Below are positions 58,601 through 64,000 of a stretch of DNA of 64,000 nucleotides, in pieces. Numbering within the stretch: position 1 is the first letter of the stretch; every line of letters starts with the position of its first letter. A model generated the notes under the pieces. The model saw only the letters and a list, made by a program, of their open reading frames with translations. It was not told the DNA's origin and did no database searches. A program made the translations under genes and the position numbers. Source of the DNA: the human T2T-CHM13v2.0 reference genome, Homo sapiens; assembly GCF_009914755.1 (NCBI RefSeq), contig NC_060928.1; one strand, given 5' to 3'.

Positions 58601-60163
58601 AAAAGGACTAATCGTGATTGGAAAGATTGAGAAACCCAGTGGTCAATCTACTACGCTGGAAAAACTGTATACTACAAATATAAACCTAGCACATAATAGG
58701 TGCTCAATAAAGGCTGACTGAAAAAATTAGTAGATAAATATTAAAATATATATATAGTCTTCAAATAATTTATATATAAATCACTTATATACAATCAAAC
58801 CATTTCATTCAAATTATATTGAGATTTTAATAATTTATATATGAGTATACATACATTTATATGTAATTTATATATAAAAATAAACTTAAAAAGATATACA
58901 GTCTTCAAATCATTTTACATAATGATGACAGTTACCATAATGTGTATCAGACCCTGCACTGTTTTACATATATGATCTTACTTGATTTCTTCCAATCTTA
59001 TGAAGTAGTTTATGGGTAATAGAAAATAAAAAAACAATAACAGCTAAAATTTTATTTCATGGGCTAGGTAATCGTCTGAGTGGTTTGCACATATTATCTG
59101 ACTTAATTCTTAGAACAGTCTCATGAATTAGGTCCTATTATCTTTTACAAATGAGAAAATGGAGGCAGAAAGGGACTGATTAGTGGACGCAGAGTCGCCC
59201 AGCTCCTAGGCAGAGCAGCTGAGAAAGAAACTGAGGCAAACACAGGCTGTCTGACCCCATAAATCACTGGGCGCATTATACTATACAGTCTGGGGGTGGA
59301 CGTACACCCTGCACGGATGTAGAGGGGGCTCTAAGACTCAGGCACAGAGAAGCACAAGCAGGCCCACAGAGGTCAGCAGTAGGGAGACCACTCAGAGACC
59401 ACTCATACCTAGGGAATGGTGGGTCCTCTGGATTGTGGTGTTTGACTTCAGACCAGCAAAAAACCTTTTGTGGCTGCCTCAAAGAATAGAGGAGAGGGTA
59501 TAATTCAGATCATTTCTAGAAACTGTTTATGTAAAATGTCCTTATGATTCAGTGAACCTATGATATTTCCTTTAAAATTATCCATGAAGGGCAGAAGCAA
59601 ATGTGCACCCCCTTTTCCAGCTGTACAGTGGGTCTGCTGGGGCTGAGGGCCCACTTGCTTAAGCTGAGCAGCTATGCCCCAAAGTGCCACTCAAGTCAGC
59701 TGTGGAAAGAATTGATTTGGAAGTCACCTATGGCAGCTGGAATCTCCTTCTGTCACGTCCAACCTGGCAGACTCCTACATGCTTTTCCAGGGCCAGTGGA
59801 CAGTGTGAGCCTGGGACAGATAGCGGCACGATGGGCTTATTCCTGAAAGGGCCACAAGTGTGCTTTGGTGTTGGCCTCAGACGACTTCTGCAACTGCCAA
59901 ACTACTAATCACATGTCTTTCCAATCAATGACCACATTGTCATTAAAAGCAAGACTACCAGGCATCACTGCTATTGCATTTACTTTGAAAATACAAGGCT
60001 GGCTGTGGAATGTTAAGGCAGGTAGACCATTGGGGGATGGGAAGCATTTCCTTAGATGGGGAACTGAAGGAAGGGAAGGTGTTCTGAGGAGAGGGGAAAG
60101 CAGAAATAAAAACTAGAAAAAGGAAAGGTACAAGATGTAATGAGGAGTTTCTGAGTAACCTGG

Positions 60164-60231
60164 TATATTAGTTTGATAGGACTCCCATAGCAAAGTACCG
60201 CAAAGTGGGTGGCTTAGAAATTTATTGTCTT
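60164..60231 (-). mobile_element. MLT1 LTR end, cut by the L1 insertion
   Basis: TATATTAGTTTGATAGGACTCCCATAGCAAAGTACCGCAAAGTGGGTGGCTTAGAAATTTATTGTCTT aligns by eye with the MLT1 start at 51254 and stops abruptly. Confidence 0.75.
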
Positions 60232-60377
60232 GGCCATTTTCCTCCGGAAGTGCGGATCCCAGCGGCGGTCCTGTAGCTGAGCAGGCCTGTGGCTTGGTTC
60301 TATGTCCCTGTGGCTATGTTTCCAGTGTCCTCTGGGTGTTTCCAAGAGCGGCAAGAAACGAATAAATCTCTGTTTTA
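60232..60377 (+). other. Non-L1, non-MLT1 146-nt segment fused to the L1 5' end (putative 5' transduction)
   Basis: Begins GGCCATTTTCCTCCGGAAGTGCGG (YY1-like and ETS motifs), contains 6 CpGs, and sits between the MLT1 break and L1 nucleotide 1. Confidence 0.75.
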
Positions 60378-61280
60378 GGGAGGAGCCAAGATGGCCGAAT
60401 AGGAACAGCTCCGGTCTACAGCTCCCAGCGTGAGCGACGCAGAAGACGGTGATTTCTGCATTTCCATCTGAGGTACCGGGTTCATCTCACTAGGGAGTGC
60501 CAGACAGTGGGCGCAGGCCAGTGTGTGTGCGCACCGTGCGCGAGCCGAAGCAGGGCGAGGCATTGCCTCACCTGGGAAGCGCAAGGGGTCAGGGAGTTCC
60601 CTTTCCGAGTCAAAGAAAGGGGTGACGGACGCACCTGGAAAATCGGGTCACTCCCACCCGAATATTGCGCTTTTCAGACCGGCTTAAGAAATGGCGCACC
60701 ACGAGACTATATCCCACACCTGGCTCGGAGGGTCCTACGCCCACGGAATCTCGCTGATTGCTAGCACAGCAGTCTGAGATCAAACTGCAAGGCGGCAACG
60801 AGGCTGGGGGAGGGGCGCCCGCCATTGCCCAGGCTTGCTTAGGTAAACAAAGCAGCCCGGAAGCTCGAACTGGGTGGAGCCCACCACAGCTCAAGGAGGC
60901 CTGCCTGCCTCTGTAGGCTCCACCTCTGGGGGCAGGGCACAGACAAACAAAAAGACAGCAGTAACCTCTGCAGACTTAACTGTCCCTGTCTGACAGCTTT
61001 GAAGAGAGCAGTGGTTCTCCCAGCACGCAGCTGGAGATCTGAGAACGGGCAGACTGCCTCCTCAAGTGGGTCCCTGACTCCTGACCCCCGAGCAGCCTAA
61101 CTGGGAGGCACCCCCCAGCAGGGGCACACTGACACCTCACACGGCAGGATATTCCAACAGACCTGCAGCTGAGGGTCCTGTCTGTTAGAAGGAAAACTAA
61201 CAACCAGAAAGGACATCTACACCGAAAACCCATCTGTACATCACCATCATCAAAGACCAAAAGTAGATAAAACCACAAAG
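60378..61280. promoter_or_regulatory. L1 5'UTR with sense and antisense promoters (CpG island)
   Basis: Intact YY1 motif and dense unmutated CpGs; promoter function is established for L1HS 5'UTRs. Confidence 0.85.
60610..60825 (-). CDS. ORF0: L1 ORF0 (71 aa), intact
   Basis: MAGAPPPASLPPCSLISDCCASNQRDSVGVGPSEPGVGYSLVVRHFLSRSEKRNIRVGVTRFSRCVRHPFL*; ATG at 60825-60823. Confidence 0.85.
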   Translation of the reverse strand: MAGAPPPASLPPCSLISDCCASNQRDSVGVGPSEPGVGYSLVVRHFLSRSEKRNIRVGVTRFSRCVRHPFL

Positions 61281-62593
<1,313 letters not shown>

Positions 62594-62632
62594 AGACCAT
62601 CGAGACTAGGAAGAAACTGCATCAACTAATGA

Positions 62633-64000
<1,368 letters not shown>

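What the first reader, a model, noticed from the sequence alone, without database searches (positions are those of the whole stretch)
60216..60400. Young L1HS carrying a captured host promoter/5'-exon segment (5' transduction)
Seen: an MLT1 LTR breaks off at ...GGCTT|AGAAATTTATTGTCTT, a plausible L1 endonuclease site (TT|AGAA) with a 15-16-bp candidate TSD. The L1 does not start there. 146 nt of foreign CpG-rich sequence intervene (60232-60377), opening with GGCCATTTT (YY1-like) and CCGGAAGTG (ETS/GABP), the signature of a housekeeping-type TSS. Inference: the donor L1 was transcribed from an upstream cellular promoter, possibly with splicing onto the L1 5' flank (...TCTCTG TTTTA GGGAGG), and the whole chimeric RNA was retrotransposed. 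That would move a promoter module ~44 kb upstream of LDB2 and tag an L1 lineage that can bypass its own promoter. From memory and unverified, the segment resembles 5' exons of GUSBP/SMA-type segmental-duplication transcripts. 5' transductions are known but rare, so this case may already be described.
Basis: partly seen in the sequence, partly recalled or inferred. Interest (0 to 1): 0.85.

Follow-up and report, generated by a model that had tools for sequence, protein, structure and literature searches.

The report
Known exon-tagged young L1 insertion

Summary
The 16-bp AGAAATTTATTGTCTT at 60216-60231 recurs directly after the L1 poly(A), 2.7 kb past the window end. So the 146 extra nucleotides and the L1 went in as one event.

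The 146 nt consist of:
- one untemplated G;
- exon 1 (81 nt);
- exon 2 (59 nt), with a ~2.13-kb intron removed exactly at GT..AG;
- five bases, TTTTA, of unknown origin.

The two exons belong to a family of about 37 copies on chr1, 3, 4, 9, 13, 14, 15, 21, 22 and Y. Exon 2 stops exactly at its splice donor.

The L1 is very young, at least 99% identical to dozens of copies. It has since been disabled by a stop codon in ORF1 and an Alu insertion. No source L1, identical paralog or sister insertion exists in this assembly.

The same locus is row 2 of Table S5 in Law & Burns, Cell Genomics 2026, so it is already known. The recalled GUSBP/SMA likeness found no support. Only transcribed promoter-proximal motifs were carried, not the upstream promoter.

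The parts
60216..60231 (+). 5' target-site duplication AGAAATTTATTGTCTT; cut site TT|AGAA
   Evidence: Read. An identical copy follows the L1 poly(A) at window-coordinate 66710. Table S5 of PMC13174262 gives the same TSD pair.
60232..60232 (+). Single G not templated by any paralog; likely cap-derived or otherwise untemplated
   Evidence: All 19 distinct paralog copies compared read C at this position (22 rows, 3 of them duplicates of the same copies). The cap origin is inferred from recalled knowledge.
60233..60313 (+). Exon 1 (81 nt) of the ENSG00000291032-type family, carrying GCCATTTT (YY1-like) and CCGGAAGTG (ETS-like)
   Evidence: Matches 36 other places at 85-98% identity. The paralogs continue with GTAGGT right after ...CCCTGTGG. 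Mapped in print to chrY:11214938-11215018.
60314..60372 (+). Exon 2 (59 nt), joined to exon 1 with the ~2.13-kb intron removed; ends exactly at the family's splice donor
   Evidence: In the paralogs it is preceded by ...ccag and followed by gtgagt. It has 36 other matches at 92-97%. The 37 family rows listed all read CTCTG|GTGAGT. Mapped in print to chrY:11212744-11212802.
60373..60377 (+). TTTTA, five bases of unknown origin between the exon 2 donor and the L1 start
   Evidence: Not part of exon 2 in any paralog. Called '3' untemplated' in Table S5. Together with the next G it closes a 20-codon reading frame that starts in exon 2 (read).
60378..64000 (+). Full-length young L1 (L1HS, Ta-type 3' UTR). 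It runs on to window-coordinate 66709 outside the window; 6332 nt including the embedded Alu and a 23-A tail
   Evidence: One search gives the length and tail. The 5' UTR is at least 99% identical to 39 of the 39 other copies scored. The last 2.7 kb is about 100% identical to 39 others.
61281..61670 (+). Start of ORF1, with a premature TGA at codon 130 (61668-61670)
   Evidence: Translation.
62232..62518 (+). 5'-truncated sense Alu (Yb8-like by recalled diagnostics) with a 21-A tail, inserted near the ORF1 C-terminus. Its own TSD (AAAA)GAGCTCCTG recurs at 62519-62527
   Evidence: The same break in the L1 is recorded in hg38 (16944630|16944927).
62657..64000 (+). ORF2, open for 1275 codons (ends outside the window at about window-coordinate 66484)

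Best explanation
One L1-mediated, target-primed reverse transcription event inserted a chimeric RNA at a TT|AGAA site inside an old LTR, about 44 kb upstream of the LDB2 start and pointing away from it.

The RNA began at the capped start site of one paralog of a multi-copy pericentromeric/acrocentric transcript family (ENSG00000291032-type). It ran through exon 1 and exon 2, correctly spliced to each other. At the exon 2 donor it was joined to a point five bases (TTTTA) ahead of a full-length L1HS-Ta RNA.

The join was most likely made by the spliceosome. Either it acted in cis, from a source L1 lying downstream in an unsampled or lost paralog with an AG acceptor 5 nt before the element, or it acted in trans. 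The element's own proteins then copied the whole RNA up to its cap.

Afterwards the copy decayed, acquiring an ORF1 nonsense codon and an Alu insertion in ORF1.

Shown: the single event, the exon identity, the exact splice junctions and the youth of the L1. Inferred: how the exon 2-L1 join was made, and where the source was.
For: - The TSD brackets tag plus L1 plus poly(A).
- The exon 1/exon 2 junction matches GT..AG introns of about 2127-2128 nt in the two best-matching chr13 and chr14 copies; the third copy read has exons about 2.13 kb apart with the same splice sites (spacing).
- Exon 2 ends at the base before GTGAGT in all 37 family rows listed at 0-1 mismatch.
- The first base, G, is untemplated in 19 of 19 distinct copies. 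The templated part then starts where the published mapping to the transcript starts.
- The L1 is complete from GGGAGGAGCC to the tail and nearly identical to many copies.
- The same class is documented: 17 chimeras, 6 ending exactly at donors, 15 in sense orientation, mostly full-length L1 (PMC13174262, section 13). A source L1 at 8q21.11 has 22 spliced 5' transductions (PMC12350158, passages).
Against: - No source was found. The only other L1 in the assembly preceded by TTTTA (chr1:59.41 Mb) is older and has AAAAA, not AG, before it.
- The 30 kb downstream of exon 2 in one best paralog holds no L1 sequence. Only 1 of about 37 copies was examined this way.
- No paralog is identical to the tag. 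The best differ at 4 of 140 templated bases, and the GG in exon 2 and one T in exon 1 were found in no other copy.
- The origin of TTTTA is unexplained. If it is the start of the family's exon 3, the join need not be a splice at all.
Confidence: 0.7

Rival explanations
1. Template switch or RNA ligation. ORF2p copied a normal full-length L1 RNA to its 5' end, added or copied a few bases (TTTTA), then jumped onto a separate spliced transcript of the family and copied it to its cap. Alternatively, the two RNAs were ligated before reverse transcription. No source L1 near the gene is needed.
For: - No source L1 is associated with any paralog, and no L1 has an AG+TTTTA flank in the assembly.
- A short unexplained filler at the junction is what the paper calls 'untemplated'.
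- Template switching and RtcB ligation are established for U6/L1 chimeras (PMC13174262 introduction passages; PMC6789731 seen in a search listing only).
Against: - The partner RNA ends exactly at a splice donor. A jump onto a mature mRNA should land at an arbitrary base.
- The authors of the catalogue disfavour template switching where a splice junction is present.
- Known template-switch chimeras usually carry 5'-truncated L1s. This one is full-length.
Confidence: 0.2
2. Ordinary 5' transduction from an L1 that sits inside exon 3 of a paralog. TTTTA would be the first five bases of exon 3 and the source L1 would be inserted right after them, so the transcript is simply the normally spliced gene RNA reading into the L1.
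For: - Eight AG|TTTTA sites exist in the 30 kb downstream of exon 2 in one paralog, so such an exon start is not excluded.
- Exon 2 is used with its normal donor.
Against: - No L1 with a TTTTA flank lies in any family region of this assembly.
- No retrocopy showing an exon 2-exon 3 junction was found from which to read the exon 3 start.
- The prior chance that a given exon starts with these five bases is low (inference).
Confidence: 0.08
3. Two separate events. A 146-nt processed fragment was already at the site and the L1 later landed next to it.
For: None found.
Against: - The 3' TSD copies the 16 bases upstream of the 146 nt, not the bases before 60378.
- There is no poly(A) or second TSD between the tag and the L1.
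Confidence: 0.01

Closest known systems
mRNA/lncRNA-LINE-1 5' chimeric insertions catalogued by Law & Burns (Cell Genomics 2026, PMC13174262), Table S5
   Same: It is the same locus. Row 2 gives hg38 chr4:16942777-16949113(+), identical TSDs, TT/AGAA, the same 146-nt non-L1 sequence, assignment to ENSG00000291032/ENST00000652671.2 exons on chrY, and TTTTA as the 3' untemplated part. The class features also match: sense orientation, first exons, near full-length L1.
   Different: The table marks the splice donor 'Undetermined', and the locus is not discussed in the main text. It also shows about 37 paralogs in T2T, none identical, an untemplated first G, and that the element is now defective.
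Spliced 5' transductions from the 8q21.11 source L1 (Schloissnig et al., Nature 2025, PMC12350158; passages read)
   Same: An upstream cellular promoter drives a transcript whose exons are spliced and carried at the 5' end of new L1 copies.
   Different: At 8q21.11 the source L1 is known, has 22 offspring, and a second acceptor lies within the L1 body. Here no source and no sibling were found, and the join lies 5 nt ahead of an intact L1 start.
SVA-F1 (MAST2 exon 1 spliced onto SVA)
   Same: A 5' exon of a host gene is acquired by splicing and then retrotransposed. It is mentioned in the passages of PMC12350158; the rest is recalled.
   Different: That is a non-autonomous SVA which founded a whole subfamily. 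Here it is a single L1 copy with no descendants in this assembly.
U6/L1 and other template-switch chimeric retrogenes
   Same: A cellular RNA in sense orientation sits 5' of L1 sequence inside one TSD pair.
   Different: Those partners are small RNAs joined to 5'-truncated L1 3' ends. Here a spliced Pol II transcript ends at a donor site and is joined to a full-length L1.

Membership tests
Single L1 target-primed reverse transcription insertion | Identical target-site duplications flanking the whole insert | tested here: met
   The 15-16 bp at 60216-60231 recur after the poly(A) at window-coordinate 66710.
Single L1 target-primed reverse transcription insertion | Endonuclease-type cut site and a 3' poly(A) tail | tested here: met
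   TT|AGAA at the 5' TSD border and a 23-A tail. The consensus site itself is recalled; the paper lists TT/AGAA.
Spliced 5' transduction / mRNA-L1 chimera (Law & Burns class) | [quoted passage not shown] | tested here: met
   Exon 1 and exon 2 lie about 2.13 kb apart in the paralogs, with GT..AG borders, on the same strand as the L1.
Spliced 5' transduction / mRNA-L1 chimera (Law & Burns class) | The captured exon ends exactly at a splice donor | tested here: met
   CTCTG|GTGAGT in the 37 family rows listed. Five unexplained bases follow in the insert.
Spliced 5' transduction / mRNA-L1 chimera (Law & Burns class) | A splice acceptor at the L1 side of the join | tested here: inconclusive
   The join is 5 nt upstream of an intact L1 start. 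The acceptor would lie in the unknown source flank, and no L1 with an AG+TTTTA flank exists in the assembly.
Classical cis 5' transduction | A source L1 lies downstream of the captured promoter/exons at the donor locus | tested here: not met
   No such L1 in CHM13: the flank search and the 30 kb downstream of 1 of about 37 paralogs found none. Absence from one assembly does not exclude a polymorphic or lost source.
Template-switch chimeric retrogene (U6/L1 type) | Partner RNA joined to a 5'-truncated L1 at an arbitrary position | tested here: not met
   The L1 is full-length and the partner ends at a splice donor.
L1HS (Ta) | Near-identity to other young copies and the Ta-type trinucleotide in the 3' UTR | tested here: met
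   At least 99% identity to all 39 other scored copies in the 5' UTR and about 100% to 39 copies over the 3' 2.7 kb. ACA is seen in ...GATGACACATTAGTGGG.... That ACA is diagnostic is recalled, not tested.
Retrotransposition-competent L1 | Both reading frames intact | tested here: not met
   ORF1 has a TGA at codon 130 and an Alu near its end. ORF2 is open for 1275 codons.

The most novel reading that the evidence does not exclude
The tag's private bases (one T in exon 1 and GG in exon 2) are absent from every copy in T2T-CHM13 plus the HG002 Y. This would mean the donor was a paralog that is missing or variable between people, in acrocentric or pericentromeric duplicated DNA. That paralog would have hosted an active L1HS-Ta driven by a housekeeping-type promoter. 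If so, it is a hidden source element whose transcription escapes control of the L1's own promoter, and it could be found in pangenome assemblies. A bolder variant: the join was made by trans-splicing between two separate RNAs.
Probability: 0.3. Interest if true: 0.45.

Novelty: already known. Interest (0 to 1): 0.2.

Why it matters
Exon-tagged L1 copies show that L1 RNA can be made from, or joined to, cellular transcripts. This is one route by which L1 could acquire new 5' regulatory sequence and escape silencing aimed at its own promoter. Both the class and this very locus are already in print.

The small additions here make the splicing reading firmer for one of the four cases the catalogue left undetermined. 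They also point to the duplicated short-arm regions as the place to look for the source. These additions are:
- the exact donor use;
- the untemplated first G;
- the size and chromosomal spread of the donor family in a complete assembly;
- the lack of any identical donor or sibling.

There is no evidence that the insert affects LDB2. The element is now defective and faces away from the gene.

Tried and rejected
- Rfam scan of 59500-61500 at E<=1 gave no match, so the tag is not a known structured RNA.
- The chr1:59.41 Mb L1 with the same TTTTA flank was examined and rejected as source. It is an older, diverged L1 with no AG before TTTTA.
- Listing all young L1 5' ends to intersect with paralog positions failed. 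There were 1,236 matches and only the first 100 were listed.
Only 30 kb of one chr14 copy was obtained, so 1 of about 37 copies was checked for a resident L1.
- I tried to find exon 3 from open reading frames (154 stop-to-stop frames of at least 45 aa) and from AG|TTTTA sites (8 sites). Neither identified an exon. The frames were Alu-like or from a 48-bp satellite. I did not send them to Pfam.
- I guessed from memory that the family might be the 'chAB4' duplicon, or FRG1/TPTE/PCMTD1-type pseudogenes. A 'chAB4' literature search returned 13 papers; none of the 11 listed (titles and abstract starts seen) concerned this duplicon, and the two human-genomics papers that hold the term once were not opened. 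No name beyond the Ensembl identifiers in Table S5 is claimed.
- ADAR editing was considered as the cause of the AA-to-GG difference in exon 2. I have no evidence for it beyond the direction of change.
- The phrase '5 transduction' could not be searched properly because of the prime sign.

Full report
**What is in the sequence.** At 60216-60231 the window reads AGAAATTTATTGTCTT, preceded by ...GGCTT. From 60378 onward it is a LINE-1 starting GGGAGGAGCCAAGATGG. Between them lie 146 bases (60232-60377) that are neither L1 nor the flanking repeat.

I fetched the 4 kb to the right of the window. The L1 ends in a run of 23 A, followed at once by GAAATTTATTGTCTT and then by sequence that continues the interrupted repeat. 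The target-site duplication therefore encloses the 146 bases, the L1 and its tail.

**What the 146 bases are.** A search of the whole assembly with 60216-60400 found two sets of matches, about 2.1-2.2 kb apart and on the same strand at each place (40 of 74 candidates scored).

Separate searches gave these results:
- For the first part, 38 of 38 candidates scored: self, 36 others at 85-98%, and one 45-base fragment.
- For the second part, 37 of 37 scored: self and 36 others at 92-97%.

All matches lie on contigs 1, 3, 4, 9, 13, 14, 15, 21, 22 and 24, near centromeres or in the first 11 Mb of the acrocentric chromosomes.

Reading three copies shows how the parts fit. The first part ends ...CCCTGTGG and is followed by GTAGGT. 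The second part is preceded by ...CCAG and followed by GTGAGT. The intron between them is about 2127-2128 nt in the two best-matching copies. In the window the two parts are joined exactly at these borders.

The tag is therefore exon 1 (60233-60313, 81 nt) plus exon 2 (60314-60372, 59 nt) of a spliced transcript. My first notebook entry placed the border two bases too far right; this is the corrected reading. It agrees with the 81- and 59-base mapped blocks in the published table.

**The two ends of the tag.**

The first base, G at 60232, is C in all 19 distinct paralog copies I could compare (22 rows, three of them repeats of the same copies). An extra untemplated G at the 5' end is what copying up to an RNA cap is known to give (recalled). 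The templated part starts where the published mapping to the transcript starts. So the RNA seems to have begun at the family's normal start site.

Just upstream, the paralogs carry GCGCATGCGC and a GC box. These are not in the insert. The YY1-like GCCATTTT and the ETS-like CCGGAAGTG lie in the transcribed part and were carried.

At the other end, exon 2 stops exactly before the donor. Among rows listed with 0-1 mismatch, 37 family copies read CTCTG|GTGAGT, and only the chr4 copy reads CTCTG|TTTTAGGGAGG (1,650 weaker rows were not listed).

The five bases TTTTA belong to neither exon 2 nor L1.

**The L1.**
- It is 6332 nt with its tail.
- Its 5' UTR is at least 99% identical to all 39 other copies scored (of 3,341 candidates).
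- Its last 2.7 kb is about 100% identical to 39 others (of 7,870 candidates).
- The 3' UTR carries ACA at the position I recall as diagnostic for the Ta subset.

The copy is no longer intact. ORF1 has a TGA at codon 130 (61668-61670). A 5'-truncated sense Alu with its own 9-13-bp duplication and a 21-A tail sits near the ORF1 end (62232-62518). ORF2 is open for 1275 codons. The Alu looks Yb8-like by recalled diagnostic bases.

There is no 3' transduction, because the tail abuts the TSD.

**Search for a source, siblings and an identical donor.**
- The exon 2-TTTTA-L1 junction occurs once in the assembly (27-mer, up to 2 mismatches).
- The exon 1-exon 2 junction also occurs once (29-mer, up to 3 mismatches). 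So there are no sister insertions and no retrocopies of this transcript.
- An L1 5' end preceded by TTTTA occurs exactly twice among 18 matches at up to 1 mismatch: here and at chr1:59.41 Mb. The chr1 element is visibly older and has AAAAA, not AG, ahead of TTTTA.
- None of the one-mismatch flanks lies in a family region.
- The 30 kb downstream of exon 2 in one best paralog (chr14:2.99 Mb) contains Alus but no L1 sequence (19 hits, all to the Alu part of the query). It runs into a 48-bp satellite array of about 70 units.
- No paralog equals the tag. The best five differ at 2 of 81 bases in exon 1 and 2 of 59 in exon 2.
- The GG in ...GAGCGGCAAG... has no match within one mismatch anywhere else.
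- The T in ...CCTGTGGC... is G in 19 of 19 copies.
- The 146 bases printed for hg38 read the same, by eye, as the CHM13 window. These differences are therefore old or came with the RNA.

**Mechanism.** The single-event structure is shown. The join between exon 2 and the L1 has to be inferred.

The partner ends precisely on a donor that every family copy keeps. A spliceosomal join is therefore the most economical reading. It could be in cis, from a source L1 downstream in a paralog not present in this assembly, using an AG five bases before the element. Or it could be in trans.

A template switch by the L1 reverse transcriptase, or RNA ligation, would explain the lack of a source and the short filler. 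It does not explain why the partner ends on a donor, unless TTTTA is the start of exon 3, which I could not check. I put about 0.7 on a splicing-derived chimeric RNA, 0.2 on template switch or ligation, and under 0.1 on an exon-3-resident source.

**Comparison with print.** Law & Burns (Cell Genomics 2026, PMC13174262) describe 17 hg38 L1 insertions with mRNA or lncRNA 5' segments. Of these, 15 are in sense orientation and most carry near full-length L1. Six end exactly at splice donors and four are undetermined because of short untemplated bases. The authors argue for cis- or trans-splicing. For that paper I read:
- the abstract and outline;
- sections 13, 20 and 49 in full;
- passages and passages of the preprint version;
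- part 1 of 3 of Table S5;
- a search of the four spreadsheet supplements.

Row 2 of Table S5 is this locus. It gives chr4:16942777-16949113(+), both TSDs AGAAATTTATTGTCTT, TT/AGAA, the same 146 bases, ENSG00000291032/ENST00000652671.2 exons on chrY, 'TTTTA' as 3' untemplated, and splice donor 'Undetermined'. The main text does not mention the locus (0 hits for the gene identifier, chrY or LDB2).

Schloissnig et al. (Nature 2025, PMC12350158; passages only) report that 82.2% of L1 partnered transductions are 3', so the rest are 5'. They also report that one source at 8q21.11 produced 22 spliced 5' transductions from an upstream promoter. The kind of event is thus established, and this instance is already catalogued.

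**Verdict.** The recalled gene likeness found no support. The 'promoter capture' is limited to transcribed motifs, and no tagged lineage exists in this assembly.

- the canonical donor at the end of the captured exon;
- the untemplated first G;
- the roughly 37-copy donor family with no identical member;
- the element's present defects.

Novelty: already known. Interest: low.

Noticed in passing
window 62232-62527: A 5'-truncated sense Alu (Yb8-like by recalled diagnostic bases), with a 21-A tail and its own duplication (AAAA)GAGCTCCTG, sits inside ORF1 of the young L1. It is also present in hg38. So two young retroelement insertions are nested at one site.
   Followed up: partly
window 60316-60378: The ATG in captured exon 2 opens a 20-codon frame. 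That frame is closed by a TAG formed from the last two filler bases (TA) plus the first G of the L1, giving a short upstream reading frame ahead of the L1 5' UTR.
   Followed up: no
L046:3-3338 (G000:C14:2958812-2962147): About 20-30 kb downstream of the family's exon 2 on chr14 lies a 48-bp satellite array of about 70 units at 81% match, continuing past the fetched piece. From memory it resembles the 48-bp 'CER' satellite of acrocentric chromosomes. The label was not tested.
   Followed up: partly
G000:C1:127719735(+)/127933880(-); C4:49120095(+)/49453469(-); C13:10411938(+)/10551754(-): Family copies often come in inverted pairs 140-330 kb apart, suggesting large palindromic duplicons around centromeres.
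   Followed up: no
L026:1500-1530 (G000:C1:59411448): An older, diverged full-length L1 is by chance preceded by the same TTTTA. It has no AG acceptor ahead of it and is not the source.
   Followed up: yes
window 59807-60101 and 58988-59488: The RefSeq 'silencer' and 'enhancer' features from the hub table lie just left of the insertion site, 115 bp and more from the TSD. They do not overlap the tag or the L1.
   Followed up: no
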